A stretch of 64,000 nucleotides of DNA from a virus: the IMG/VR virus record IMGVR_UViG_3300009514_000005, positions 32,001-96,000 of that record; one strand, written 5' to 3'. The translations under genes were made by a program, and so were the position numbers. Below are positions 6,341 through 39,100 of this stretch, in pieces. Each line of letters begins with the position of its first letter. Position 1 is the first letter of the stretch. A model generated the notes under the pieces. That model worked only from the letters and a program-made list of their open reading frames with translations. It searched no databases and had not been told where the DNA came from.

Positions 6341-6637
6341 TTATTTTAAGTCTTCTGTTTTAATATCTGACTTATATTTATTGTCACCGTAAAGACTTCT
6401 CGCCTCTTGAACATCAGGACTAATATCTTTATCCATAATGAATTTACGCAGTACGTCTGTAGTGACCTGAACCATGACATGCCCTTTCATAGCGCGGTTA
6501 ATGATCATTTGGTCTGGCTCTAGTTTTACCATTGACTCATCACGACTTAAGGCAAATAAAGCACCAGCAACCCCAACTGCAATACCAAAAATAAAACCTA
6601 TAACGGAAATCAATATCAAATAACTCTGAGAAATCAT
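6341..6637 (-). CDS. Small membrane-anchored protein
   Basis: N-terminal hydrophobic helix (ILISVIGFIFGIAVGVAGALFAL), overlaps the GT stop. Confidence 0.6.
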   Translation of the reverse strand: MISQSYLILISVIGFIFGIAVGVAGALFALSRDESMVKLEPDQMIINRAMKGHVMVQVTTDVLRKFIMDKDISPDVQEARSLYGDNKYKSDIKTEDLK

Positions 6638-8382
6638 GTCATCACCTCGCTGGCCGCTCTTACCACTTCGTCTGAAGTAATATCAGACAAGCATTGCATT
6701 GTCCCAATTTTGCATCCAACAAAAGTTACCGGAGGCTTTTCTTCGTGAAGGCAAAACCTGCATTCAACCTTCGGAACCAAAGCGATTGTCTTGGCCTGCC
6801 TATGGGAAACCCTATACTCTGGACTGGCAACAGTAAATAAACCAACAACAGGAATACTGGTGGTCATGGCCACATGAAAAAGACCCGAATCCATTCCAAT
6901 AAAAACGTTAGCTCTTTGCATTAATTCTCTAATTTCGTGTATGGAAAGATTGTTTACAAGATTCAATGTATTCTTAAATAGGTCGGCCACAAAATCTCCA
7001 CCCTTTCCAACAACAACAACTTTGTTCCCAGCACTAGCAAGTGACCTAGTTACGGCCATCCAGTTTTGTCTGGACCACGTTCTTGTTGGCCAAGACTGAG
7101 CCATATGAACAATAACTATCTTATCTTTGTTTAAATCAATGCCAGAAATTTTCCCTTTTAAAAGCTGATAATCATTTTCATCAGAGAACAATTCTGGAGC
7201 CGGATCAAAATCTAGACCACCAAATACAGCATTGGCATAAGCTTCTGCGATATGCATCTTTGGGCTTCTCTCGTAAACCTGATCCAAATCATAAATCACA
7301 TTAGATGGAATCTGATCTTTTCTAGAGACAACATTTGCAACATTAGGATTACCTTTAAAAATATTTTTAGACCCGGTAGACACCCAAATGTCTTTGTCTG
7401 GATGCCTTCTTTTTAATTCGCTAATAATTCCAGTAGTAAGCAAAACATCACCAAGGGCTCCGGTTCTTACCACTCCGATTATTTTTTTATCAAAATCATT
7501 TTCCTTAAAAGATTTCTTTCCAGATCCATCAAAAACCATTCTCTCTGATCCCTTTGGTTTAACGCTGACAGAATTAAGCAACTCAAGATTTGCCTCATTA
7601 ACGAAGCCATCAAGTTCTGTCATGTTTAAATTGGCAACTAGATTGCTAAATTTCTTAGCCGTGTTCATCTCCTTTATTAGCCAACTGCGACCTTTAACTA
7701 TTTTTGTCTGGACAGTGTTTCCCCTAGTGCCGCCTTCTTCATGTATAGCCTTAACGTCTGAAGAATAATAAACCCTCCATCCATTCCTCCACGCTCTAAT
7801 GCAATATTCCGTATCTTCACAGGAAAGAAAATAGTCCTCATTCAACATTCCGATATCATCAATCATTGATTTTCTAATCGCAAACAATGCCCCCGTCACC
7901 CCAATTAGATAAGACGGCTTAAGAATTACCGGAGAATATGCTGGAGGCTTATGCCATCCTCTATGAGTAAAGTTTGTGCTGACCCGCTCTATACCACCAT
8001 GCTGAACGCTTCCATCTGGATACAAAAGAAGACCACCTACAATGCCAATCTTTTGATGGACATTAAATGCCTCTTCCAAATACTGCACGACTGGCTGAAT
8101 GAATTTAATATCATTATTAACCAGCACAACGATGTCTCCTTTTGCTTGAGCAATCCCCTTGTTAACCGTCTTAGCAAACCCTGAATTGATAACATTGAAA
8201 TCAAAAACATAGCCTCTGGAATGACAAGCATTTCTAAGCTGACTTCTTATACTCTCGTCACTACCATCATCAACAACAATAACTTCATGATCTACGCCAT
8301 TGTGCTCTTCAAAAGTTCCAAGACAATGAGACATAGTCATATTCAAATGATTAACTGTTGGAACTATAAATGAAAATTTCAT
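6634..8382 (-). CDS. Bifunctional glycosyltransferase, GT2 N-terminus plus GT9 (heptosyltransferase-like) C-terminus
   Basis: FSFIVPTVN, VVDDGS, LVNNDI, SCEDTEYCIRA (GT2), VRTGALGDVLL and FIGMDSGLFHVA (GT9). Confidence 0.9.
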   Translation of the reverse strand: MKFSFIVPTVNHLNMTMSHCLGTFEEHNGVDHEVIVVDDGSDESIRSQLRNACHSRGYVFDFNVINSGFAKTVNKGIAQAKGDIVVLVNNDIKFIQPVVQYLEEAFNVHQKIGIVGGLLLYPDGSVQHGGIERVSTNFTHRGWHKPPAYSPVILKPSYLIGVTGALFAIRKSMIDDIGMLNEDYFLSCEDTEYCIRAWRNGWRVYYSSDVKAIHEEGGTRGNTVQTKIVKGRSWLIKEMNTAKKFSNLVANLNMTELDGFVNEANLELLNSVSVKPKGSERMVFDGSGKKSFKENDFDKKIIGVVRTGALGDVLLTTGIISELKRRHPDKDIWVSTGSKNIFKGNPNVANVVSRKDQIPSNVIYDLDQVYERSPKMHIAEAYANAVFGGLDFDPAPELFSDENDYQLLKGKISGIDLNKDKIVIVHMAQSWPTRTWSRQNWMAVTRSLASAGNKVVVVGKGGDFVADLFKNTLNLVNNLSIHEIRELMQRANVFIGMDSGLFHVAMTTSIPVVGLFTVASPEYRVSHRQAKTIALVPKVECRFCLHEEKPPVTFVGCKIGTMQCLSDITSDEVVRAASEVMT

Positions 8383-14488: not shown

Positions 14489-15376
14489 TTAATATTTACT
14501 CATTACGCAATGACCATGAGACATCTTATACTCTTTAAGCTCCTCATCAGTCATATAACCATATTTAGCAACCGCTTCATTAAGTTTTTCTGGCAAAAAT
14601 TTACGACCCCAAACTCCAAGGTTTTTATTTCCCTTATCCTCATTGGCTTTTAATTTGTTTTCTTCTATTCGAACCCAATCTTGATAGTCTTCCGGATGAA
14701 ACCTATAGAGCCAAAGTAATTCAATCTCGTTCATAAATGGACAAAGAATACAATTTGATGGAACCGGAACTTGGTTACCAGTTGAAGAAATATATTCCTG
14801 GCATCCTTTTCTGTCTAAACCAAGATCCACCAGTGGATAAATATGATTAATGGATTTTTTTCTCCACTTCATGGAATCCTTAGATGGATCTGCCATTCTT
14901 TTTTCTTCTCCAGAGGCAATACCAATCATCATTTTAATTTTTCCATACCGCTCTGCAAATCGAAGAAAGGCTTTCTTTCTTCCTTTGTCAACTCCATATT
15001 TCTTATGAAGCCAATCCTCTAAAAATTTATAGATAGGTTGAATCTTAAGTTTATCAGTGCAGGTTTTAGGGAAAGCTTTGGATCCAACAGTATTTTTAAG
15101 ATTATAAAAACCTCTCAACGACTGCCAAGAATCATAATGATATCCCATGTCACTGGTAAGGTGAACAAACTCAATTTTGTTTTTACCGCAAAATTTTTTA
15201 ATATTTTCAACATGACTATAAGTGTCCCGATGTTCATCACCAGTATCAGACATAATTACCAAAAAATCATTTGGAGCATATTTAGATCGGAACCCCTGAT
15301 CGTAAACATATTTGTAAAGGAGAGTAGTTGAATCCTGCCCTCCTCCAAATGATAAAATCGTTAACTGATCACTCAT
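14489..15376 (-). CDS. PAPS-reductase-like / PP-loop adenine nucleotide alpha-hydrolase family protein
   Basis: ILSFGGGQDST PP-loop, SDTGDEH, CTDKLKIQP, YPLVDLGLDRKGC, SNCILCPF. Confidence 0.75.
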   Translation of the reverse strand: MSDQLTILSFGGGQDSTTLLYKYVYDQGFRSKYAPNDFLVIMSDTGDEHRDTYSHVENIKKFCGKNKIEFVHLTSDMGYHYDSWQSLRGFYNLKNTVGSKAFPKTCTDKLKIQPIYKFLEDWLHKKYGVDKGRKKAFLRFAERYGKIKMMIGIASGEEKRMADPSKDSMKWRKKSINHIYPLVDLGLDRKGCQEYISSTGNQVPVPSNCILCPFMNEIELLWLYRFHPEDYQDWVRIEENKLKANEDKGNKNLGVWGRKFLPEKLNEAVAKYGYMTDEELKEYKMSHGHCVMSKY

Positions 15377-15393: not shown

Positions 15394-16959
15394 TTATTTT
15401 TTAGGGGAGTTAACATAATGAAGTTCGCTCTTGGCTCTCGTGATAGCCACATAAATCAAATTATCCTCTTGGTTTTTCTGCCAATTCTGAACGGCATATT
15501 TCGAAGGAAGAAGCCAGCGATCCAAGAAGAAAACCCTTATACACTCTAAGCCTTTTGACTTATGAACAGTGGAAAGGTTTACCAAGTTTTGGCTTAGGAC
15601 CGCTCCGTTTCTCACCTCTTCTTTTTGGAAAAGATTCTCAATTGATTTGATTAATTCCGAAACAGAGTTTGCTCCACTCATCTCAATAAAAATTTCTACA
15701 ACCTCAACTCTATCTTCAATTCTGGAAACATCAGCTTTAGGACTTTTTTCAAGAAGTCTTTCGATCTCTCTTTCCTTCCAATTATCAAGTTTCTCAGTGA
15801 GCTTAACAAGATTCTTAGCCTTCATTCTTTCAATGAGAGAAACAATTCCCTTGGCCAAATCTCTACCAAGAATGGTGGCTGGTACTCGATCACCAATTAA
15901 TCTATAGGCCAATCGAATAAGAGGAGCCGTATTCCTACAAACAACCAGATCACCCTTGCGAAACATATCAGTTTGATATTCTCCACGATCCTCAACATGA
16001 CCCTCAGGAGCCCCATCAAAAGCTTCGATATGATCAACCACCTCTTGAGCTTCCTCTACAATTTTTTGTGGACATCGATAAGAAGTCGAAAGAGGAAGTC
16101 TCTTACAGTTAAAAGTTTTAACGATATTTTCCATAGAATCAGAATCAGCTCCTCTAAATCCATAGATAGCCTGACAAGGATCCCCAACAGCAACAAGCCT
16201 TCCATTTCTTTTTAAAGTTTTCGCAATAAGAGATCTTTGAATTTTGGAAACATCCTGGGCTTCATCAACGAAAACAAAATCATTGGTGAACATAGGAATA
16301 TTAAAAATAACTGGAAGGTAAAGCTGATCATCAAAATCAATCATTTCATCACGCTTTTCGATTCCAACCTTGAGAAGAATCCTGGCCATCTCAACCATTT
16401 TTTCACGATCTTTTCCTGGATCAAATTCCTCTTCGGTATCAGATTCAAATTTACTTCCACCTTCATTGGGCTGAATATCATAACGATCAATCAGATCATC
16501 CCAAACTGAATCCTCATCCTTAGTGAGAGCGTTTAAATCCATCCCGCTAGGAACGATTCCGATACCTTTTGCAAGCCCAACAAGCTTAACCGCTGCGGAT
16601 CCCAATCTCTCAATGGTTCTTTCGGTATAGTCTGGGGAGATATAATCATTGAAAAGTTTCCAAGTCTTCTGAGTCTCAAGATTAGGCCGACCATCAACAT
16701 ATCTTGCCCAAGCACCGTGACCAAGACCATTCAAAGTCTTTGCGATAACATGACCCGGAACACGATCACTCAATTCATTGGCGATGCTTTTATTAAAAGC
16801 CAAAAAGATCACCCTTTTATTTTGAGGAATTAATTCCAAAGCCTTAATAATAGTTGTTGTCTTTCCGGATCCTGCAACTGCCTCCACGACAGCAGATCCC
16901 TCACCGTTTTTAATAAACTCAAAAACCGCTTCCTGATACTTGCTTGGTTTAAAACTCAT
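15394..16959 (-). CDS. UvrD/Rep-family superfamily 1 helicase
   Basis: AVAGSGKTT, VDEAQD, VGDPCQAIYGFRGA, STVHKSKGLE, YVAITRAK. Confidence 0.92.
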   Translation of the reverse strand: MSFKPSKYQEAVFEFIKNGEGSAVVEAVAGSGKTTTIIKALELIPQNKRVIFLAFNKSIANELSDRVPGHVIAKTLNGLGHGAWARYVDGRPNLETQKTWKLFNDYISPDYTERTIERLGSAAVKLVGLAKGIGIVPSGMDLNALTKDEDSVWDDLIDRYDIQPNEGGSKFESDTEEEFDPGKDREKMVEMARILLKVGIEKRDEMIDFDDQLYLPVIFNIPMFTNDFVFVDEAQDVSKIQRSLIAKTLKRNGRLVAVGDPCQAIYGFRGADSDSMENIVKTFNCKRLPLSTSYRCPQKIVEEAQEVVDHIEAFDGAPEGHVEDRGEYQTDMFRKGDLVVCRNTAPLIRLAYRLIGDRVPATILGRDLAKGIVSLIERMKAKNLVKLTEKLDNWKEREIERLLEKSPKADVSRIEDRVEVVEIFIEMSGANSVSELIKSIENLFQKEEVRNGAVLSQNLVNLSTVHKSKGLECIRVFFLDRWLLPSKYAVQNWQKNQEDNLIYVAITRAKSELHYVNSPKK

Positions 16960-16996
16960 TAAGCCTCCTTCAAATTAATATCCAAAACCTACCCCC

Positions 16997-17047
16997 ATTA
17001 TCAGGTATATTCATCTAAATGTAAAGATAATTTCTTGACAAAACGTA
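16997..17047 (-). promoter_or_regulatory. Sigma70-like leftward promoter TTTACA-N17-GATAAT (copy 1 of a conserved 51-bp element)
   Basis: -35 at 17025-17020, -10 at 17002-16997, nearly identical element at 25762-25812. Confidence 0.7.
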
Positions 17048-17092: not shown

Positions 17093-17122
17093 AAATAGAA
17101 AGGCTAATGGTATGATTTGGAT

Positions 17123-17314
17123 ATGAAGCTCTTTGTAAAAACCATCTCCTGGCGATTTATAGCTATGTCTACAACCGGCTTGATCTCTTACGTTCTCACG
17201 GGTTCAATTGAGATAGCGACTAGTATCATGAGCGTTGAAGTGGTGATAAAAAGTCTTTTATATTATGCTCACGAAAAGATATGGATTAAATACGGAGGAT
17301 CCCATGAAAAATAG
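17123..17314 (+). CDS. DUF2061-family small membrane protein
   Basis: KTISWRFIA...SYVLTG.I.IA.SI...EV..K..LYYAHEKIW signature. Confidence 0.85.
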   Translation: MKLFVKTISWRFIAMSTTGLISYVLTGSIEIATSIMSVEVVIKSLLYYAHEKIWIKYGGSHEK

Positions 17315-18227
17315 AGCAATCTGGCTTACCGGCCTCCCGTGTGCGGGGAAAACCACTATAGCTCAAGAACTTGTAAAACTCATCCCAAACTCCACCATTC
17401 TCGATGGAGACATAATTCGATCAGGGCCCCTAGGCCAAGGGGTAGGGTTTTCCAAAGAAGACAGAGAAGCCCATATTAAGCGAATGGGGCATATAGCAAA
17501 AATTCTCTTAGACTCTGGGATAACCCCAATCTGTTCCTTCGTTTCTCCGTCAAGAGAAACCAGGGAAGAGATTAAAGAGTTCATAGGTAAAGATCGGTTC
17601 TTTGAGATTTTCATAGATCCTCCCTTGGAGGTATGCATCAAAAGAGACGTTAAGGGAATGTATGCTAAAGCCATGCGTGGCGAGATCCAAAATTTTACTG
17701 GAATCGATGCAACTTACGAAAAGCCAACTAACCCAAGCCTAAGAATTGATACCGATAAAATCTCCCTAAAAGACACGGTTAATTTTATTGTAGGCAAACT
17801 TAAAATTTATCCAGAAAGAGCTGCCTTTTTTATTGGCCGATGGAACGGTGCCTTACATTTGGGGCATGAGGAAATTTTCAATCAAGAATTAAGCAAAGGC
17901 AAAAGGATTGTTCTTCTCATTAGAAACGTTAGGCCAGACGAAAAAAATCCTTGGACCGCTAAAGAAGTCAAGGAAATGCTGGACTATAGATACAAAGATA
18001 ATGACAGTGTAAGCACTATGATTGTTCCAGATCTTGAGAGTGTTAACTACGGTAGAGGCGTTGGATATGAAGTAAAAGAGATAAAGGTTTCAGGAAAGAT
18101 AGCCGGGATCAGTGGAACAAAATGCAGAGAAATGATTCAAGACAATAACCCTGAATGGAAAAAACTAGTATCTCATAATGTTATTGAATTTTTAGAGCTG
18201 AAATATAGCAAAGAAAATAAAAAATAA
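17304..18227 (+). CDS. cysC: Adenylyl-sulfate (APS) kinase fused to a HIGH-type nucleotidyltransferase domain
   Basis: IWLTGLPCAGKTT, LDGD, GFSKEDR, SFVSP, KRDVKGMYAKA...NFTGID. C-terminal FIGRWNGALHLGH...NPWT...ISGTKCR. Start refined to 17304 (GGAGG SD). Confidence 0.9.
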   Translation: MKNRAIWLTGLPCAGKTTIAQELVKLIPNSTILDGDIIRSGPLGQGVGFSKEDREAHIKRMGHIAKILLDSGITPICSFVSPSRETREEIKEFIGKDRFFEIFIDPPLEVCIKRDVKGMYAKAMRGEIQNFTGIDATYEKPTNPSLRIDTDKISLKDTVNFIVGKLKIYPERAAFFIGRWNGALHLGHEEIFNQELSKGKRIVLLIRNVRPDEKNPWTAKEVKEMLDYRYKDNDSVSTMIVPDLESVNYGRGVGYEVKEIKVSGKIAGISGTKCREMIQDNNPEWKKLVSHNVIEFLELKYSKENKK

Positions 18228-18257
18228 CTTAGCCCGAAATGCGGTTAGAATAGAACC

Positions 18258-18905
18258 ATGGAAAAAACAATCATAGTGATAGGGCAAGCCAGAAGTGGAA
18301 CATCCATGGCCGGAGGATTCCTGCAAACACTTGGTGTTCAGATGAGCGGGGCTGATAACAAATCACCTCAAAACCCAAAAGGGAGCTTTGAGGATCCGAA
18401 GTTCATAGGGATCACAACAAAAGTAACATCAGCCAAAAAAGCAAACACCCCTATAGAGGATATAAAAAAAGAATTCGAGCCTCTTTTTATTCAAAATATT
18501 AACGAAAAAAATCAACTCCATGGCTTATGGGGATTCAAAAGCGCCCTTAGCCATGAGTCTTTAGAGTTTATTATTCCTAACATTAGAAACCCTCATTTCG
18601 TTGTGACCTTTAGGAATGTTTACAGAAACGCAATGTCCTGGAAAATCCATGTAAAAGAAAGATACAAAACGGAAGTTACGATTCACCAAGCTCTTTCTAA
18701 GGTGTCCAAGGGAATTTGGGATGTATGCGAAGCTTTAGAAAAGCATCAAAACATTCCTTGTCATTTTACAACCTACGAAGAAATGAGATTTGATCCAGTA
18801 GGGCAGGGAAGAAGAATGGCCCAATTTATTGGGCTACCATACCCCGAGGAAATTGAGGCCAAGATCAAAGATTTCATCGTTATGGGATATTCAACAGTTA
18901 AATAG
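18258..18905 (+). CDS. PAPS-dependent sulfotransferase
   Basis: PSB loop IVIGQARSGTSM, NPKGSFED, WGFKS, TYEEMRFDP...RRMAQFIGL, directly after cysC. Confidence 0.8.
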   Translation: MEKTIIVIGQARSGTSMAGGFLQTLGVQMSGADNKSPQNPKGSFEDPKFIGITTKVTSAKKANTPIEDIKKEFEPLFIQNINEKNQLHGLWGFKSALSHESLEFIIPNIRNPHFVVTFRNVYRNAMSWKIHVKERYKTEVTIHQALSKVSKGIWDVCEALEKHQNIPCHFTTYEEMRFDPVGQGRRMAQFIGLPYPEEIEAKIKDFIVMGYSTVK

Positions 18906-19428
18906 ACTTCTGAGCACAAAGATAAAATCCATATTTAAACGGAAGGTTTATATCGGATCCATGATCAACCACAACCATACTGTTTCCGTAATAAGCCCTG
19001 AATCTTCTTAAAAATATTTCATGATAATAAGCATGGTAATGCTCAGCGTTCCATAAATTATCATATGCTGAATCATCTGGAAGATAGAGAAAAAGCTTTC
19101 CCCCTGGTTTTATAAAATGAATCCAATCATCCAAGGCTCTAAAGTCATTTGGAACATGCTCAAGACAATGAGACGAGAAGAGACAGTCGTATTGGGCAAC
19201 ATGATCAGGAAGCAATTCGGATAGCCTATAAATATCCTCTATCTGTGGAGGGTTGAAATCTACCCCAGGAAGTTTTCTGCCATCAATCCCAAAAGCTTCA
19301 GGCTTTATTTTGTCAGGACCACAACCAATCTCGATAACTTTCCCGCCACAGTACTGCATAGCGATATGTCTTATCTTTGCCGTCTCGCTTACAAAATCTC
19401 CTTCGCAACATCCCAAACTTTTACCCAT
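18898..19428 (-). CDS. Class I SAM-dependent methyltransferase
   Basis: VIEIGCG, FGID, CLFSSHCLEHV, IKPGGKLFLYLP. Confidence 0.85.
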   Translation of the reverse strand: MGKSLGCCEGDFVSETAKIRHIAMQYCGGKVIEIGCGPDKIKPEAFGIDGRKLPGVDFNPPQIEDIYRLSELLPDHVAQYDCLFSSHCLEHVPNDFRALDDWIHFIKPGGKLFLYLPDDSAYDNLWNAEHYHAYYHEIFLRRFRAYYGNSMVVVDHGSDINLPFKYGFYLCAQKSI

Positions 19429-20048
19429 TAGATCACCTCGTCAACGATTCCTAATTTTTTAGCATCAAGAGCTGTCATATAACTTTCTTTGTTTTCCATC
19501 AACTCTTCAAGTTTTGTTTTGGCAACTTTTTTCCCAAGGCGTTTTTTTTCAACATCACCTATCTCAACGGTTTTCTTATGCCGGATCTCTCTATAAAGAA
19601 TATCGATGATCCTTTTCTTTTCAAGTTTGAGGGAAGCCAGGATCCCGGCGGCCTCGGTCTCATTAGTGCCCATAAGAAGACTGGACTCCCTTGGGCCATG
19701 GAACATAAAGATTGAATCCTTGCTACTTTTTCTCCAATCACCACAAGCAGCAATGGTAGTGGCGGCACTCATACAGTCACCTAAAACATAAGTAATCACA
19801 GTGCCTTCAAATAATTTAAGAGAATTAATAATCGAAATCGCCGAAGCGCAGCAGCCACCATAAGAATTTATGAAAACCGTGACTTCATTTATTCTTTCTT
19901 TTTCTGCTACGTTGTTCCAATAGAAAACTTTACCCTGAACATCCTCAGCCATCTCTTCATTGATTTCACCGAAAATTTTTATGGCACCATTATCTAACTC
20001 AGATTCTAGGACAAAATCTGTTTCCTGAGCCATAAGCCCTCCAATCAA
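19428..20048 (-). CDS. ClpP-like serine protease
   Basis: IFGEI, FINSYGG, CMSAAT (Ser), FMFHGP (His), YMTALDAKKLGIVDEVI. Confidence 0.85.
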   Translation of the reverse strand: MIGGLMAQETDFVLESELDNGAIKIFGEINEEMAEDVQGKVFYWNNVAEKERINEVTVFINSYGGCCASAISIINSLKLFEGTVITYVLGDCMSAATTIAACGDWRKSSKDSIFMFHGPRESSLLMGTNETEAAGILASLKLEKKRIIDILYREIRHKKTVEIGDVEKKRLGKKVAKTKLEELMENKESYMTALDAKKLGIVDEVI

Positions 20049-25335: not shown

Positions 25336-25755
25336 CTAAGCCTCCTCATTAAAAGCTTCTTCCCAGGGCCCATAGTGCCTATACCGTTGCATCCAATAAC
25401 TGGTTTCACCCATGTCGAACTGAACGCTCATCCCAGGAGCGATTCCAAATTTCTGATAAAAGTCTTGAATACTCATATCGATGATCACTTTATTATTAGT
25501 GTCAGCGATTTTGGCTCGGCCATTAATCTCAAGCCAGGCGAGTTGAAAGTGAGTGTTTGAAAAACCATGGGCAAGGCGACAAGTCCTATCGTTCCAATGG
25601 TATTTGTTTTTCATCATGAAGTGGATCTGCCAAGTGAACTGAGGCCGGGCATAGCCTTCAGGAACCGCTTCCCATTTTTTGGCCCAAGGGAAAAGCTTTT
25701 TCCAAGCCCTGACCCCGATTCCTACTTTTGGACATTTCTTCAGTTTCCTTTTCAT
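25336..25755 (-). CDS. Hypothetical early protein (probably leaderless)
   Basis: ATG lies 6 nt after the GATAAT -10, no SD. Confidence 0.55.
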   Translation of the reverse strand: MKRKLKKCPKVGIGVRAWKKLFPWAKKWEAVPEGYARPQFTWQIHFMMKNKYHWNDRTCRLAHGFSNTHFQLAWLEINGRAKIADTNNKVIIDMSIQDFYQKFGIAPGMSVQFDMGETSYWMQRYRHYGPWEEAFNEEA

Positions 25756-25761
25756 ACCTAG

Positions 25762-25812
25762 ATTATCAGGTATTCTGGTTTAAATGTAAAGAGGTTTTAT
25801 TGACATAACGTA
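25762..25812 (-). promoter_or_regulatory. Sigma70-like leftward promoter TTTACA-N17-GATAAT (copy 2 of the 51-bp element)
   Basis: -35 at 25790-25785, -10 at 25767-25762, matches 16997-17047 block for block. Confidence 0.7.
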
Positions 25813-25871: not shown

Positions 25872-26039
25872 CTAATTTGCCGGACTGCGGTCTAGTTGCA
25901 CCACCCCATCTTCGTTCTGAACCCAATTTTTAAGCCCTCCACTATGGCCTTCAATATCGGTAACAACGATTCCATCATCGTAAGTCATATCTGGAGCATG
26001 ATCTTTCACCACATAAATGTCCCTAGGAACTTGCGTCAA
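25872..26039 (-). CDS. Possible small hypothetical protein (TTG start)
   Basis: Open 55 codons (LTQVPRDIYVVKDHAPDMTYDDG...) filling the gap, no clear SD. Confidence 0.3.
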   Translation of the reverse strand: MTQVPRDIYVVKDHAPDMTYDDGIVVTDIEGHSGGLKNWVQNEDGVVQLDRSPAN

Positions 26040-26402
26040 CTAAGATGCATGAAATTTTGGATTTTCTGGATCAAAAGGGGGTATCTCATCAATTCTGGGG
26101 CCTTCAGAGCCCTCGTCATAGAGCCTATTGAAGTGTTCAACCTGGGCCCAGAAATCAACCTTAAACCGCTCCTGGGTAGTTTTAGCCCCCTTACTGTGGA
26201 CCCAACCCATGTGATGATGAGGACATAGAGGAATTGCGGTCTTGTCGGCCCCAAAAGCACCTCTAGATTTAACATGATGGGCGTGAACAGGATAGGCCCC
26301 GCATTTCGGAATACAGCAGTTGAAAGAATGAAGCCACCAAAGATAGCGAGGATCTAAATCCCTATAACATTTCTTCTTAGATTTTTTTGGTTTCGGAATC
26401 AT
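26040..26402 (-). CDS. DUF968-like / HNH-related zinc-binding nuclease
   Basis: CCIPKCG, HAHH, GA...AIPLCPHHH...H. Confidence 0.6.
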   Translation of the reverse strand: MIPKPKKSKKKCYRDLDPRYLWWLHSFNCCIPKCGAYPVHAHHVKSRGAFGADKTAIPLCPHHHMGWVHSKGAKTTQERFKVDFWAQVEHFNRLYDEGSEGPRIDEIPPFDPENPKFHAS

Positions 26403-33129: not shown

Positions 33130-36100
33130 TTACTTAGCTTGAGTGTTTTGATAATAAAGGGACTCAACGGAGCCTCCATCATCTTTTTCATTCATAAATC
33201 CTTTACCCGGTTGGACTTGAACTCTCATTGCTGGCCCACCCGTGATTACATCAGGCTTAAAATTGTAATCAATTACTTCTCCAGCTGTTGGCGGATTGGA
33301 TGCCTGAGGAGTCGCATCGTGAAGCTGAACACCCAAGATTCTTCCCTTAGTTAAGTTTGAAGCTCCACTTGAATCACCTTGTTTTGTTATAGAAAAAACG
33401 TCTCCGTTCGGACTCTTTAGCCCTTGACTCTCTTGGTAAAAAAGATTTGGCGATGCTCCATCAAAAAGTGTTGTCACGGTTTTTCCAGTTAGCGGTGTGC
33501 TGATATCTGGTATTTTAGCGACCACTTGGTCTGGGTAACCATCAGCACCTTGTCGGTCGTAAATAACATAGAGGCTTGTGGCACTTGTCCAGATAATTTT
33601 ATGGAGGGATCTTCTACCAAACCTTTGAGTGCCACTTGAGGACGAGTGCCCAGCAAATTTGTCTATCTGATTCACACCGTCACCAATATCAGCAATCGCT
33701 GTAAATACTGGAGTTGCCACAGTCAAGTCGGAACACGTAGACAAATTAATTTGAGTGATGACCGCATCGTTGTAAGAAACAACTGCTATTTTGTTTCCGT
33801 TCACAGCATAACCAATCGGAACATCCTGGAGAGTTGAGTTGGCATTTGCAATTTGAATTCTTGTCTGCCAAGTGACTGCATCATCGTTCGTATACCACAT
33901 ATGCATTGCGGTTGGAGATGGGCCGTTGTCGCAACCGATGATCATCATTCTATCGCCTGCTGCTCCATTATCCCCTACATGGAAAATATATGGTGAAGTT
34001 GATAACAATGCTGCGTCTGTCCCACCTGTTTTTACTACGGCGGGTGTACTCCAACTTGCTCCGCTATCAGATGAAACGGTGGTATACCCTTTTGCGGTTG
34101 TGACATTAATGGCAAAAATAAAATGCTTTGTTCCTCTTTGAACAAGTTCAACGGCGGTATAATCTTGTCCTGCATCCGGTATTGCAATAACCCCGGTCAT
34201 GCTTAGGTTTCCGCCAGCATCTATTGTTCCGTAATTGACATCGATTCTCCAATTAGCTCCATCATAATTTGGATAGGCTGCAACAACTTTGTTACTTGAA
34301 TCAATCGTTATTTTTGGCCCGTAGACATGATAATCTGTAACCGCACTTGTTTGGCCAAAATTATAAACGTCCGTGGTTACACCAGTGCTTTTGTTGTAGA
34401 GGGTCACATAATATCTAGCTTCAGTTGCTCTTTCTGCAATGGTTACAACGTAATTATCGTTTTCATCCCAGTGCCATACTTCTGCATCTGTTGCTTTATC
34501 CCAGACTTTAGGTGGAACCTCGAAAAATTGCTCGTTTGTTGGATTAAATTCTCGTTCAGTATAAGAGTTAACAACTACCTCATCAAAACCTGTAGTAGAA
34601 TCTTCCTTCTCAAAGGTTGTATAAAGTCTATCCGAAAAGGACTGAACTATAGGGTGTCCTAAGAAGTTAGTAAAACTTGGTTTATTTGCTATATCCGTTT
34701 CTTCCGCATCAAAAATAGGATCATTAGAAGCCGTTGGAGTAGTGTCATACAATCTCACCACTTTTGCTTGACCATTAGCTAACCAACTGACGGGTGCTGT
34801 ATTTTTGTGAATCCATCCCAACCAAGTCACTCCCCCTACAGATTCTACCCAAGATTCAGTAAATCTATTTGAGGCATCCCCAACTTTAACAACTGTATAG
34901 TCAAAACTGGCAGCTATGTTTGAAACATCCCAAACTTTGATCCAGTGTAAAGCAGCAGCATCAACACCACCGTTTACTTGAGAATGGGGGAAGCCAATAC
35001 TTTGAGTAGAAGTCCAGATCATGTTATTTATAAATCTACGGTGGAAGCTACCGTTTGTAGCAGCAGATGTATTCCCATTGTAATAATCAATACCGTTCAA
35101 AGTTTCATGCCATGAAGTTCTAATATTAACGGGTGCTCCACCTACGGATGGTGTAGGGGTATTCAGGGTTATAATAGTTAGATACAAGTATCCGGGGTTT
35201 ACGGCCTCAGTTGCAGAAACAACAGCTAATTTACTCCCGTTGTCACTAAGTTTAACCCTGAAAATAAAATCTCTTACTGTGGATGTTCCTATATCTGAAA
35301 CCGATAGAGCTGTTTCCCAATTTCCTGAAAAATCAACGGCATCGATCCAGTGGTGCTTTAAGTTATAAGAGCCCACAGCTTCGGTTGATGTCACTCCTAA
35401 ACGAGTAGCTCCTGCAACATCTGGATCTTCTGTAACTATGAGAGATATCGGAGCATCTGACTGAGCAACAGCAGCAGTAGCTCCATCTTTTACCGAAGAT
35501 GATGTTCCAGCGGCTCCTCCGGGTTTGTTCGAGAACGTAACGCCATCATCTTCTGACACTACTATTACAATGTTATTACTGATACTCTCTACAAATACAG
35601 CGTAAATTCTACTATTAAGAGTATCCTCAACCCAACTAACAGGATGATTAGTAAAAACATTTCCAGCATGAAGTGAAGATCCAGTGTTAGATTCAGATAA
35701 AGTTAAAGACCCTGTGTCTAAAAGAGTGCCGTAAGCTGCCTGCATTCTAGGAGTGGAGGCATCATTCTTATGAAACCAGATTACTACTTTCTTGTTTTTG
35801 ATTCTTACTCTAGGAGGAACAGTGTACCAATACTGGTCTGAAGCAGTGTGGCTTGTTCCCACAGTAAACCAATCTGGAGAAGTTCCAGGAAACCAATTAT
35901 CTCCACCGTCTACAGTGGTTTCAAATTCATAGGAAGCATCCGTTGTTGGGCCTACTATCCCGACCCTAACACCGAACAAAGGAAAATCTGGGTCAAAGCG
36001 AACATCCCAAGCAGGTTCATCTGCTGTTTTATTTCTGGTTTGCTTAGGCTGTTTTTTCCAAGTATTAGCAAAAAGTTCTGTCCTTAACCCATAGTTATTA

Positions 36101-39100
36101 TAAACAGCCTGTTGGATATCATCTGTCTCATCAACTGTGACCTCTTTTTCTGAAAGAACATGAATCTCACCGGCACCTTCAGAAGAAACTACAATCATGT
36201 TTCCAGCATACCCTTCATCGTCAACATTTGGTTTCTTAATGATATCTTCAGGTGTTCCACTGAATTGAAATTCACTTAATTTTATAGAAGCATCATCAAA
36301 CTTTAACGTTCCTGATTTTCCACCACTTGATGCACCCAAGAATATATTTGTTGTTGTTGATTTAGCTTGGAAAAATACTCTTTTTAACCCTGTAGTAGTG
36401 TGAGTTTGGGCATACAAATTTTCCCCAGGAGCAACATAAGACCCATCTCGAACAGCGATATGATGATCCATTGTTCCCGATAACGATATGGCATCTGATT
36501 CAGCCTTATAAAATTTTCCTGGTTCCGTTACAAAATCTTGCTCAATGAAACCACTGCCTCCACCATCTTGAACAACATTAACTTCGCCTGAAACTATAGT
36601 TACGCTAGAAGTGCCATTCTCTGTTTTGTTCCAACCAGTAAAATCAGTTGGGAAATCCCCATTAGTAAGTAATTCTGGCCCTAGGGCTGGGAATAATAAT
36701 TTTTGAGTTAAAATTCTTCCCAAACCATTGTGGGCAAAACTATTTTCAATTAATTTGTAAACACCAAAAACATCGGAACCATTTGATCCAAATTGGGTGG
36801 CAAAATATAAATTATTATCTGAAGAAGTGTTTGTAATTATGTGATTCGGAACGGGTGTTCCGGTGTCTGGAACATGAGTCCATACATGATAACCGTTATT
36901 AAATTCACATGAAAAAATAATTTCTGTTGCCGAAATTGCATAAATCGAATGCTTCATCTTGGCATAGTTTCTTCCAAGACTATGTTGGGTATTGTCCAGA
37001 CCTTCAGCGTAGAAAGAAAGGTATTGGCCAGTCCCAAGATGGGCGTCGTAATTAATTTCAAAATCAGAAATGGCTGGGGTAGTTGGGTTCCCCAAATCAA
37101 TCATATGAATATGTTTTGTCCTAGTCGCTGTAGAATTAACTATGGCAGTAGAACCATCATCTGCCTGAGTTGTCGTCCCTGACTGGACACTTAAAAATAA
37201 TTTTTTCAAACGGAGGTGTGCCCCCACTATTACCTGCCATTTTGTTTCGGCGTTGGTGTCTGGAAGAACTTGTTCTGTCGCCCAGTTATTCGCCAAGTTT
37301 TGATCCTTAGTATAAGCGTGTCTTAATCTTCTATTTCCAGCATCATTAGAGGAATAAACTACACTAACAAGATCATCTCCTGGTGTGTCTGGGTCATCAA
37401 TGGCCGATAATTTATATGGGGCAAAATTATGAACGTTAGTTAATTTTTGAGAAGTGGTTGTTGCCCCACTTTTAGGATTTTCTCTTCCTGCGAAGTTTGC
37501 CCCATCATCAGTTGACTTGTAGATGTCCATGGTTGATGAGGTAGTCAATGCGGCCAAATAGATGTTTCCGTTAGGGCTTCTTACAACTTGCAAGGCCGTT
37601 CTTGATTGACCTGCTGCTGGATCAGAAATAGTTCCAGCTCCATGGGCTGAGGAATCAGAAAGACTTAATGACAGTTCTTCATCTGCCGTAATAGTCCCAT
37701 AAACACCTCGAACCTCTCTATTCCCGCCACCATCTTTATGTACAAATCCAATAAAAACTTTTCCTGTATTATCAATATCTGCAACTGGACTATCTTTCAC
37801 ATAATCTGGTTGACCGACTCCATCATCCCAACCACCAACTAAAACTGTTGCCCACTTTTCATCTATTCTTCTTTCTGGGCCACTTCCAACTTTATAAGAG
37901 ACAGATAACATTGCCCCTGTTTTTTCAGAGACTTGAGCAAAAAGTTTATAGTTTCCATCCGGGGAAACAGCCATGTCTTTAAGGGTTACATCATTTGGAT
38001 TAAGAGCATCGACAAGAACTGGTTCAGACCAATTTTCCGTGTCGTCTAATGAATTTGGTTTGATATCAATGTTTGGATGCATTAAGAATTTTCTCTGATC
38101 CGCAACTAATACTGTGGCCGATGCTGGCTCACCAGCTCTTGTTGAGTTCGCTCCTGAAACACTGGAGATCTCACCGCTAGTTCCATTGATATAGAAAACA
38201 TCACCAAGAGTTAATCCGGAATAACCAGTAACCTCTGCACCTAAAATAAGATCAACCGAATCAAGAGCACTTCCAGAAACAGCTACAAAACCGCTGAAAA
38301 ATTCAGATCTATGATCAGGATTAACATAAGGAGTTAAAAATCCATCGTCTTGATATAGCGTTGAAGCATCATCAGTCGTATTGGTCCTAAATAAAAGAGG
38401 CTCAACGGTCATCCCAATGGGCCTTGTCGCGGCCCTGTGAAATGCAGCAGCCGTTAAATCAACAACACCGTAGCCAAGTTTTGGAAGAATAGAATTTGTC
38501 TCACTTGCCTTAAGAGAGAATGACCCGGAATCAATCGATATTTTAAATTTTTCCTCATCACTAACAATCGTGAAGACACCAGAACCAGTAGCAGCGTCCA
38601 TTTTGGTTTTAATATCACTAGCTAAATTTGTGAAAGGGTATGGATAATCGCCATTAGCGATCGTCAAAGGAAGGTCAGATCCACCTTGATTAAAAGTCAG
38701 TTTATTATTTGTATTATCAATTGTAATAATATTTTTTAGCTGGGGATATGCAGCATTTGGAGTTCCGAAGCTTTCGCCAAGTCTTAAGCCTCGAACAATG
38801 GTTACACCATCAATAGTCTGTAAAACAGTAACCTTAGTTTTTCCAACAGCAGTTTGCTCAACAGTGGCCCCAACAAAATCAATCTCTTTAACATCTCCAT
38901 CAATAAGAGATCCATTTTCTTTTACTGCAAGAGGATCTCCGCCTGCACCTCCCCCAAGGTTAAGAAAGGGCCTCCTGTCAATTAAGGACGCGATATTGGT
39001 AAGCGTTGTTATATCGCCAGAACCATTTGTTTCAAGGATTACAGTGAGTGCTTCCATGTTTGCAGCAGCAACACTAGGAAGATTATCGTCTTTTATAGCA

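What the first reader, a model, noticed from the sequence alone, without database searches (positions are those of the whole stretch)
17123..18905. Inverted plus-strand sulfation cassette: DUF2061 - CysC/nucleotidyltransferase fusion - sulfotransferase
Seen: this three-gene unit is the only multi-gene plus-strand block in 64 kb. It has its own divergent promoter region and converges on a methyltransferase with an 8-bp overlap. Inference: an independently regulated module supplying PAPS directly to a phage sulfotransferase. This makes cysC a donor-generating enzyme for a modification rather than a simple sulfur-assimilation auxiliary gene. DUF2061 may be an uncharacterised membrane partner.
Basis: partly seen in the sequence, partly recalled or inferred. 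Interest (0 to 1): 0.8.

Follow-up and report, generated by a model that had tools for sequence, protein, structure and literature searches.

The report
Phage sulfation operon, mini PAPS synthase
An uncultured 135-kb T4-like phage carries a three-gene operon that most likely makes its own activated sulfate (PAPS), using a tiny enzyme that seems to stand in for the usual ATP sulfurylase, and passes it to a phage sulfotransferase, probably to decorate a sugar chain.

Summary
Window 17117-18905 is the only plus-strand multi-gene block with coding-like codon usage. It encodes DUF2061, a 307-aa APS kinase fused to a 137-aa HxGH nucleotidyltransferase (NTase), and a 215-aa sulfotransferase. The block ends in an 8-bp convergent overlap with a methyltransferase gene.

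The kinase is a genuine APS kinase. The NTase is a cut-down relative of archaeal NMN adenylyltransferase. APS kinase, NTase and DUF2061 recur as a module in hundreds of phage and cellular loci, fused in every pairwise combination and in both domain orders.

Of 50 cellular genomes with the NTase, 43 have neither Sat nor CysD. In a Chitinophagaceae sample, all 43 APS-kinase genomes without the NTase have CysD or Sat. None of 10 with the NTase has either (p = 5e-11). None of 51 phage records has Sat.

Sulfotransferases, GT9-type glycosyltransferases and relatives of the methyltransferase recur beside the module.

Best reading: a self-contained PAPS synthase (NTase = non-canonical ATP sulfurylase) feeding a phage sulfotransferase, probably acting on a glycan. 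Nothing has been assayed, and I found no paper describing it.

This scan has noted the same module many times on other DNA (197 notes, at least 159 genomes). Those notes are not independent evidence.

The parts
16990..17047 (.). 58-nt regulatory core in the divergent intergenic region. It holds a - strand promoter for the UvrD-like gene and a + oriented TTGACA box ahead of the cassette.
   Evidence: TTTACA-17-GATAAT, 10 of 12, - strand. (second copy at 25755-25812, 78% identical; TTGACAWAACGTA occurs only at these two sites).
17123..17314 (+). DUF2061 protein, 63 aa from ATG 17123 (65 aa from TTG 17117). A small helical-hairpin partner of the PAPS module.
   Evidence: PF09834, 69.1 bits, E 4.4e-19. 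Fusions to the APS kinase and to the NTase. Next to the module in 42 of 80 phage loci. Hydropathy is moderate, maximum 1.6.
17304..17813 (+). APS kinase domain of the 307-aa fusion (residues 1-170).
   Evidence: PF01583 E 6e-49. TIGR00455 181.5 bits against a cut-off of 138.7. phmmer E 2.7e-42 to the APS kinase of Aquifex Sat/APSK 2gks, and matches to 5cb6 and human PAPSS1. Fold Z 19-22 to APS kinases.
17814..18227 (+). 137-aa HxGH nucleotidyltransferase domain, the candidate non-canonical sulfate adenylyltransferase.
   Evidence: Motifs FIGRWNGALHLGH, RNVRPDEKNPWT, VNYGRGVGY and ISGTKCR are conserved in the family. Profile E 1.8e-13 to archaeal NMNAT 1f9a, with a roughly 33-residue gap. Fold Z 12.3 to 1f9a. 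Phyletic complementarity with Sat/CysD.
18258..18905 (+). PAPS-dependent sulfotransferase, 215 aa.
   Evidence: PF13469 and PF00685 above cut-off. Family-invariant GxARSGTS, R119...S127, E45 and K94. Model pLDDT 94.7. Every listed Foldseek match is a sulfotransferase-fold protein, most solved with PAP or PAPS.
18898..19428 (-). SAM-dependent methyltransferase converging on the cassette. It is probably functionally linked to it.
   Evidence: PF13489/PF08241. Relatives lie next to the sulfotransferase relative in L164 and near cysC in L002, L011, L017, L032, L033 and L035.
18819..18834 (-). Terminator-like hairpin for the - strand operon, buried in the 3' end of the sulfotransferase gene.
   Evidence: GCCCAATAAATTGGGC followed by a T-rich tail, 64 nt past the methyltransferase stop.
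6634..8382 (-). GT2-GT9 fusion glycosyltransferase, a possible maker of the glycan that is sulfated. The link is inferred.
   Evidence: PF00535 and PF01075. The same architecture lies directly downstream of the DUF2061/fusion pair in L003 and in the sulfotransferase-methyltransferase cluster of L164.

Best explanation
The block is a translationally coupled operon that makes PAPS and uses it.

- Inferred: the C-terminal 137-aa nucleotidyltransferase adenylylates sulfate (ATP + sulfate -> APS + PPi).
- Shown by homology: the N-terminal domain is an APS kinase, which phosphorylates APS to PAPS.
- Inferred: DUF2061 is a small helical-hairpin subunit or membrane tether of this enzyme.
- Shown by homology and fold: the downstream 215-aa enzyme is a PAPS-type sulfotransferase.
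- Inferred, least certain: its acceptor is a glycan built by the phage's GT2-GT9 glycosyltransferase, and the convergent methyltransferase also methylates that glycan. The glycan could sit on the host envelope or on a virion protein.

The phage would therefore not depend on the host's Sat or CysDN for its sulfate donor.
For: 1. The kinase is a real APS kinase: TIGR00455 181.5 bits against a cut-off of 138.7, and E 2.7e-42 to the Aquifex APS kinase domain.

2. The NTase and the kinase are fused in both orders. Most relatives are APSK-NTase; P0057 and P0100 are NTase-APSK. DUF2061 is fused to either partner. In 63 of 80 cellular NTase loci the APS kinase lies directly upstream or is fused.

3. 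Neither the phage record nor 50 related phage records has a canonical ATP sulfurylase, PF01747.

4. Of 50 cellular genomes with the NTase, 4 have Sat and 3 have CysD.

5. In a 120-genome Chitinophagaceae sample, 43 genomes have an APS kinase but no NTase. All 43 have CysD (34) or Sat (9). All 10 NTase-bearing genomes labelled Chitinophagaceae, Ferruginibacter or Chitinophaga have neither. One of them is a complete 4.7-Mb chromosome. Fisher p = 5e-11.

6. The model matches human PAPS synthase 1 over both domains (Z 24.1, residues 1-306).

7. Sulfotransferases flank the module in bacteria (L091, L148, L157) and in phages.

8. The window's sulfotransferase keeps its PAPS-binding motifs and fold.

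9. GT9-type glycosyltransferases lie within 5 kb of cysC in 5 phage records. One is adjacent to the module in L003, and one is adjacent to the sulfotransferase-methyltransferase pair in L164.
Against: - No enzyme of this NTase family has been assayed, and I found no paper on it.
- By sequence and fold the NTase is nearest to NMN adenylyltransferase and PPAT, not to PF01747 ATP sulfurylase.
- The 10 NTase-bearing Chitinophagaceae may be one clade, so the p value overstates the number of independent events. Many other NTase genomes are incomplete MAGs or SAGs.
- Seven NTase genomes do have Sat or CysD.
- Stand-alone NTases in Thermodesulfobacteriota sit in unrelated contexts.
- The window's own sulfotransferase family is not found beside the module elsewhere.
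- About three quarters of cysC phage records show no recognisable sulfotransferase.
- In L003 the module sits beside an RfaE-domain-I-like heptose kinase. That fits a sugar-phosphate adenylyltransferase reading of the NTase.
- The + strand promoter is not a consensus match.
Confidence: 0.6

Rival explanations
1. The cassette still feeds PAPS to the sulfotransferase, but APS comes from the host's Sat or CysDN. The NTase domain then does another adenylyl transfer. The best candidate is sugar-1-phosphate adenylylation (HldC-like, making ADP-heptose for the GT9 glycosyltransferase). NMN adenylylation is the other.
For: - The NTase belongs to the PF01467-type HxGH class and is nearest to NMNAT.
- L003 has an RfaE-domain-I-like heptose-7-phosphate kinase, RmlD and a GT2-GT9 enzyme around the module, but no separate adenylyltransferase was seen among the neighbouring ORFs scanned.
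- The phage has its own GT2-GT9 enzyme.
Against: - This reading does not explain the two-way fusion to the APS kinase, or the near-exclusive complementarity with Sat/CysD.
- The cellular neighbourhoods scanned hold sulfotransferases and none of the heptose genes.
- There is no NCBIfam hit to the heptose adenylyltransferase, and the NMNAT scores are far below cut-off (24.8 against 181).
- The stretch of NMNAT aligned to MJ0541 residues 77-109 is missing.
- The phage has no heptose kinase of its own.
Confidence: 0.22
2. An ordinary auxiliary metabolic gene set. The phage boosts host assimilatory sulfate reduction (PAPS goes to host CysH), and the sulfotransferase is an unrelated neighbour.
For: - cysC is often listed among viral auxiliary metabolic genes in virome surveys (papers listed).
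- The closest relatives (G002, G003) have the DUF2061-fusion pair but no recognisable sulfotransferase.
- A PAPS-reductase-like PP-loop gene lies 1.7 kb away.
Against: - The three genes are packed tightly: an 11-nt overlap and a 30-nt gap.
- Sulfotransferases recur beside the module in phages and bacteria.
- The PP-loop protein scores 18.2 bits against a cut-off of 22.5, and it matches no CysH model.
Confidence: 0.1
3. The NTase and kinase make a PAPS analogue, a 3'-phospho-nucleoside diphospho-X donor other than sulfate. This would resemble the Campylobacter O-methyl-phosphoramidate pathway (Cj1416 nucleotidyltransferase, Cj1415 CysC-like kinase, methyltransferases). That pathway is recalled from memory and was not checked here.
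For: The logic is the same: an NTase followed by a 3'-kinase, with a methyltransferase nearby. An orphan 'APS kinase' without Sat or CysDN is also what such a pathway would look like.
Against: - The kinase passes the APS-kinase equivalog cut-off and matches the characterised Aquifex APS kinase at E 2.7e-42.
- The partner transferases are sulfotransferase-fold enzymes.
- No glutamine-kinase or amidase partner was seen in the Pfam scans of genes between 3.4 and 21.7 kb of the window.
Confidence: 0.05

Closest known systems
Metazoan bifunctional PAPS synthase (PAPSS1/2; PDB 1x6v) and Sat-CysC fusions (Aquifex 2gks)
   Same: A two-step sulfate activation carried on one polypeptide. The order is APS kinase N-terminal, adenylyltransferase C-terminal, as in PAPSS, and the family also has the reverse order, as in Aquifex. 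The model aligns to 1x6v over both domains (Z 24.1). The kinase halves are clear homologues.
   Different: The adenylyltransferase half is 137 aa rather than about 390 aa. It has no PF01747 match and lacks the extra N-terminal domain of Sat. It descends from the NMNAT branch of the HxGH superfamily. It often comes with a DUF2061 partner, which PAPS synthases lack.
Archaeal / NadM-type NMN adenylyltransferase (PDB 1f9a, 1ej2, 2qjt, 2qjo)
   Same: Same fold (Z 12.3, 130 residues aligned, 25% identity). Same motifs: GRxQPxHxGH, NPF/WT and ISxTxxR.
   Different: About 33 residues between the DIE strand and the GYE segment of MJ0541 are replaced by SVNYGRGV, with an invariant Arg. From memory, that stretch holds the nicotinamide pocket. 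The score is far below the NMNAT cut-off (24.8 against 181.2). The domain is almost always paired with an APS kinase.
Rhizobial NodP/NodQ plus NodH (with NodS): a dedicated PAPS supply for a sulfotransferase that modifies a glycan (established knowledge, not tested here)
   Same: A private PAPS-making unit encoded next to a sulfotransferase, alongside a methyltransferase and glycosyltransferases that act on the same oligosaccharide.
   Different: NodPQ is a CysD / CysN-CysC type GTP-coupled ATP sulfurylase. Here the sulfate-activating role would fall to a small NMNAT-like enzyme. The setting is a phage, not a symbiosis plasmid.
HldE / HldC heptose-1-phosphate adenylyltransferase (PF01467 class)
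   Same: A small HxGH adenylyltransferase. GT9 heptosyltransferase-family enzymes and, in L003, an HldA-like kinase are neighbours.
   Different: There is no NCBIfam hit to the heptose adenylyltransferase models. The coupling is to an APS kinase and not to a PfkB kinase. This phage has no heptose kinase.

Membership tests
APS kinase (CysC; PF01583, TIGR00455) | Score above the curated family cut-offs | tested here: met
   PF01583 166.4 bits (cut-off 21.1). TIGR00455 181.5 bits (cut-off 138.7).
APS kinase (CysC; PF01583, TIGR00455) | P-loop and the LDGD...R, GFS..DR, SFxSP and NFTGI segments shared with solved APS kinases | tested here: met
   GLPCAGKTT, LDGDIIR, VGFSKEDR, SFVSP and NFTGID align with 2gks and 5cb6 and are conserved in the family. 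The Asn of the EN(I)RR segment is His here. The roles of these residues are recalled from memory.
Sat-type ATP sulfurylase (PF01747) | Sequence match to the family profile | tested here: not met
   No PF01747 hit in the protein or anywhere in the 134.6-kb record. So it is not a member, although it may do the same job.
Sat-type ATP sulfurylase (PF01747) | Catalyses ATP + sulfate -> APS + PPi | not testable with these tools
   Only indirect evidence: complementarity with Sat/CysD and fusion to the APS kinase.
HxGH (HIGH) nucleotidyltransferases, PF01467 class | HxGH motif near the N-terminus, ISxTxxR motif near the C-terminus, Rossmann-like fold | tested here: met
   LHLGH and ISGTKCR are present and invariant in the family. 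Relatives carry PF01467. Fold Z 11-12 to NMNAT and PPAT. The window's own copy gives no PF01467 hit at E 0.01.
NMN adenylyltransferase, archaeal/NadM type (TIGR01527, NF002243) | Score above the family cut-off and a full-length match including the NMN-binding segment | tested here: not met
   24.8 bits against 181.2, and 33.7 against 127. The profile alignment to 1f9a breaks between residues 76 and 110 of MJ0541.
PAPS-dependent sulfotransferases (PF13469 / PF00685) | Family score, the 5'-phosphosulfate and 3'-phosphate binding motifs, and the fold | tested here: met
   37.9 and 32.1 bits, both above cut-off. Invariant GxARSGTS and R119...S127. All listed Foldseek matches are sulfotransferase-fold proteins (TPST, CurM ST, Stf9, SULTs, retinol dehydratase), most solved with PAP or PAPS; E about 1e-5, TM 0.55-0.63. 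The acceptor cannot be read from these matches.
DUF2061 (PF09834) | Score above the family cut-off | tested here: met
   69.1 bits against 23.1. Membrane location was not tested. Hydropathy is only moderate.
Heptose-1-phosphate adenylyltransferase (HldC / RfaE domain II) | Match to the curated models | tested here: not met
   No such NCBIfam family appears among the hits at E 0.01.
Assimilatory PAPS reductase CysH (for the neighbouring gene 14489-15376) | PF01507 above cut-off, or a match to a CysH model | tested here: not met
   18.2 bits against 22.5, and no CysH model hit.

The most novel reading that the evidence does not exclude
The NMNAT-derived 120-140-aa nucleotidyltransferase, often with DUF2061, is a third, undescribed class of ATP sulfurylase. 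Together with the APS kinase it forms the smallest known PAPS synthase. It has displaced Sat and CysDN in lineages of Bacteroidota, Marinimicrobia, CPR bacteria and archaea. Phages spread it and use it to sulfate glycans on the host surface or on virions.
Probability: 0.55. Interest if true: 0.85.

Novelty: new variant of a known kind. Interest (0 to 1): 0.7.

Why it matters
Sulfate activation is a textbook step with two known enzyme types, Sat and CysDN. A third type, much smaller, would change how sulfur metabolism is read from genomes and metagenomes. Genomes now called unable to activate sulfate may in fact do so.

It would also give a compact two-domain PAPS generator for biotechnology. 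And it would show that phages carry complete sulfation pathways, which points to sulfated glycans as an unexplored layer of phage-host interaction.

The claim is directly testable with one recombinant protein and one E. coli complementation.

Tried and rejected
- Only two structure predictions were allowed, so the NTase domain could not be folded and searched on its own. The whole-protein fold search is dominated by the kinase.

**Similarity to known phages**
- No DNA similarity to deposited phages.
- tblastn in cultured phages gave only 25-28% matches in Xylella, Xanthomonas and Stenotrophomonas phages. The Bacata hit is a 246-aa kinase next to a COG3236 protein, not this fusion.

**The sulfotransferase link**
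- The window's sulfotransferase family was not found in 80 cysC phage loci.
- Its 43 phage relatives, only two of them full-length, have no cysC module within 6 kb. The link is therefore at the level of 'a sulfotransferase', not this family.
- PF19798 was absent from the phage records, but the control genomes did not ring either, so this says little.
- The L003 206-aa protein upstream of DUF2061 has a PRSGTS motif. It matches the sulfotransferase profile only over 28 columns (55% probability), which is not enough to call it.

**Readings rejected**
- NMNAT: rejected on score and on the missing segment.
- HldC and the phosphoramidate-donor pathway: kept as minor rivals.
- CysH for the 14489-15376 gene: rejected on score.
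- A consensus sigma-70 promoter for the + strand: not found.

**Literature**
Seven searches and one paper read found no description of this fusion, of DUF2061's function, or of phage sulfation. The methanogen study uses a classic Sat.
Full report
**Setting**

The window is bases 32001-96000 of a 134,619-bp IMG/VR virus record, about 90% complete. The record has a Gp23-type major capsid protein outside the window. The window holds replication genes: DnaB-like helicase, primase, and UvrD-like and ResIII helicases. G+C is about 39%, and nearly all genes are on the - strand. No deposited phage is similar at the DNA level.

**Observation**

Three + strand genes are packed between a UvrD-like helicase gene (15394-16959, -) and a methyltransferase gene (18898-19428, -).

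- DUF2061: 17117/17123-17314, PF09834, E 4.4e-19.
- A fusion protein whose real start is ATG 17304, behind a GGAGGA. It overlaps the DUF2061 stop by 11 nt.
- A sulfotransferase: 18258-18905, with PF13469 and PF00685 both above cut-off.

The two stop codons give an 8-bp convergent overlap with the methyltransferase gene.

Other + ORFs in the window overlap longer - ORFs, and those tested have negative codon-usage scores. The cassette genes score like real genes. So the structural observation is confirmed.

The promoter claim is weaker. The - strand promoter is a 10-of-12 match. The + strand has a TTGACA box but no proper -10. A 58-nt core of the region is repeated at 25755-25812.

**The kinase half**

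Residues 1-170 pass the NCBIfam APS-kinase equivalog cut-off (181.5 against 138.7 bits). They match the APS kinase domain of the Aquifex Sat/APS kinase, Synechocystis APS kinase and human PAPSS1 at E 1e-39 to 1e-42. The P-loop and the LDGD..R, GFS..DR, SFxSP and NFTGI segments are in place. The fold agrees (Z 19-22).

**The nucleotidyltransferase half**

Residues 171-307 carry FIGRWNGALHLGH, RNVRPDEKNPWT, VNYGRGVGY and ISGTKCR. A 24-member alignment has 15 invariant positions, including the second His of HxGH (the first is nearly invariant), three Arg, and S..T..R.

The nearest solved proteins are archaeal and NadM-type NMN adenylyltransferases: profile E 1.8e-13 to 1f9a, and fold Z 12.3 over residues 172-305.

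The domain is not an NMNAT by the curated models (24.8 against 181.2 bits). The alignment to MJ0541 also skips its residues 77-109, replaced here by SVNYGRGV. From memory, that stretch forms the nicotinamide pocket. I could not check this on coordinates.

It gives no PF01747 match, so it is not a Sat-type ATP sulfurylase by membership. The whole model nevertheless aligns best to human PAPS synthase 1 over both domains (Z 24.1, residues 1-306; the rmsd of 14 Å reflects a different domain arrangement).

**A conserved three-part module**

A search with the NTase region found about 100 relatives. Nearly all are APS kinase-NTase fusions of about 300 or 345 aa. There are also DUF2061-NTase fusions and stand-alone NTases. 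Two members have the reverse order, NTase-APS kinase.

A full scan of 1.84 billion representative proteins gives 193 clusters at E <= 1e-30 and 1371 at E <= 1e-10, with the NTase at either end of roughly 300-aa proteins.

In IMG/VR, 567 stretches encode relatives. Among the best 80 loci, 56 have the NTase and 42 have DUF2061 next to the kinase, fused, split or permuted.

In species-representative cellular genomes, 158 loci were found in Chitinophagaceae, Flavobacteriales, Marinimicrobia, Nitrospiraceae, Dadabacteria, Thermodesulfobacteriota, CPR bacteria and a Micrarchaeota MAG. In 63 of the best 80, the APS kinase lies directly upstream or is fused. In Chitinophagaceae, DUF2061 is fused to the kinase. 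So all three parts are found fused pairwise.

**The test for the missing ATP sulfurylase**

- The phage record and 50 related phage records contain no PF01747.
- Of 50 cellular genomes with the NTase, 4 have Sat. Three of these are Nitrospiraceae, where the NTase stands alone. Three have CysD, and these are the genomes whose adjacent kinase is most divergent. That leaves 43 of 50 with no known ATP sulfurylase.
- As a control I sampled 120 genomes of the family of one carrier, a complete 4.7-Mb Chitinophagaceae chromosome. None has the NTase, and 43 have an APS kinase. Of those 43, 34 have CysD and the other 9 all have Sat beside the kinase.
- The 10 NTase-bearing genomes labelled Chitinophagaceae, Ferruginibacter or Chitinophaga have neither. 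That is 43 of 43 against 0 of 10, p = 5e-11.

An APS kinase without a source of APS makes no sense, so the NTase, possibly with DUF2061, is the obvious replacement.

Caveats:
- The 10 genomes may be one clade.
- Many other carriers are incomplete.
- The pattern would also fit a pathway that makes a different 3'-phospho-nucleotide donor. The kinase's close similarity to proven APS kinases and the sulfotransferase neighbours argue against that.

**What the PAPS is for**

The window's sulfotransferase belongs to a small family of 24 metagenomic relatives at 27-44% identity. The family has invariant GxARSGTS and R...S motifs. The model is confident (pLDDT 94.7). All of its listed structural matches are sulfotransferase-fold proteins, most solved with PAP or PAPS, with no clear hint of the acceptor.

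Sulfotransferases of PF13469/PF00685 occur in 12-13 of 50 cysC phage records. From their coordinates, they lie within about 6 kb of cysC in G001, G005, G006, G015, G024, G029 (three in tandem), G030, G031, G038 and G041.

In bacteria the module sits next to sulfotransferases and not next to sulfite-reduction genes:
- Chitinophagaceae: hydroxylase / DUF2061-kinase / NTase / sulfotransferase-like.
- Marinimicrobia: aminotransferase / Sulfotransfer_5 / kinase / NTase.

**A glycan as the likely acceptor (inferred)**

- In L164, a T4-like phage, a full-length relative of the sulfotransferase follows the prohead protease, the Gp23 capsid gene and a GT9 glycosyltransferase. A relative of the window's methyltransferase comes next, and a GT2-GT9 fusion lies nearby.
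- In L003, a complete 157-kb relative, the order is RmlD, an RfaE-domain-I-like kinase, a cupin, a 206-aa protein with a PRSGTS motif, DUF2061, the kinase-NTase fusion, and then a GT2-GT9 fusion.
- The window's phage has the same GT2-GT9 fusion at 6634-8382.
- GT9 enzymes occur in 10 of 50 cysC phage records, five of them within 5 kb of cysC.
- Methyltransferase relatives lie near cysC in six further loci.

Together these point to a sulfated, methylated glycan. I cannot tell whether it is on the host envelope or on a virion protein.

**Rivals**

- The L003 context raises the possibility that the NTase makes ADP-heptose. This does not explain the fusion to the APS kinase or the Sat/CysD pattern. 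The window's phage has no heptose kinase, and no heptose-adenylyltransferase model matches.
- A plain assimilation-boosting role is possible for relatives without a sulfotransferase. It fits this tightly packed operon poorly. The nearby PP-loop gene is not CysH.

**Prior knowledge**

I found no paper on this fusion, on DUF2061's function or on phage sulfation. Automatic names in the ESM Atlas call some archaeal APS kinase + PF01467 fusions 'sulfate adenylyltransferase/adenylylsulfate kinase'. That is a label, not evidence.

Earlier notes of this scan describe the same module on other DNA many times (197 notes, at least 159 genomes) and reach the same reading. They are AI notes and I do not count them as support.

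**Verdict**

- The mechanism is well supported by comparative genomics but unassayed.
- It is a new variant of a known kind (PAPS synthase plus sulfotransferase), with a probably new enzyme family for sulfate activation.

Noticed in passing
window 25755-25812: A second copy (78% identical) of the 58-nt back-to-back promoter core. It sits at the start of the - gene 25336-25755. Its + oriented TTGACATAACGTA box faces a stretch where the only + ORF (25896-26228) has non-coding codon usage (-0.18). It may drive an antisense or small RNA.
   Followed up: partly
window 18819-18834 (- strand): A terminator-like hairpin for the RusA-ClpP-methyltransferase operon lies inside the 3' end of the sulfotransferase gene. 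No + strand terminator was found for the cassette, so the convergent transcripts must overlap.
   Followed up: no
window 6634-8382 (-): A 582-aa GT2-GT9 (heptosyltransferase-family) fusion glycosyltransferase sits in the replication gene block. The same architecture lies next to the PAPS module in L003 and in the sulfotransferase-methyltransferase cluster of L164.
   Followed up: partly
window 14489-15376 (-): A PP-loop (SFGGGQDS) protein that resembles PAPS reductase only weakly (18.2 bits, below cut-off). It is not CysH and may be a nucleic-acid-modifying ATP pyrophosphatase.
   Followed up: partly
L003:4206-4826: A 206-aa protein directly upstream of DUF2061, with an N-terminal GIPRSGTS motif and a later R-x8-S. 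It could be a very divergent mini sulfotransferase. The profile match covers only 28 columns.
   Followed up: partly
L101:2641-6414 (Nitrospiraceae MAG): A stand-alone NTase lies next to a sulfite reductase-TusA fusion in genomes that also have Sat. This is a sulfur context without an adjacent APS kinase.
   Followed up: no
window 33130-40089 (-): A 2319-aa ORF, by far the largest in the window. Not examined.
   Followed up: no
window 19428-20048 (-): A ClpP-family protease gene directly upstream of the methyltransferase (the methyltransferase start codon shares one base with its stop), followed upstream by RusA and a metallophosphoesterase-like gene.
   Followed up: no
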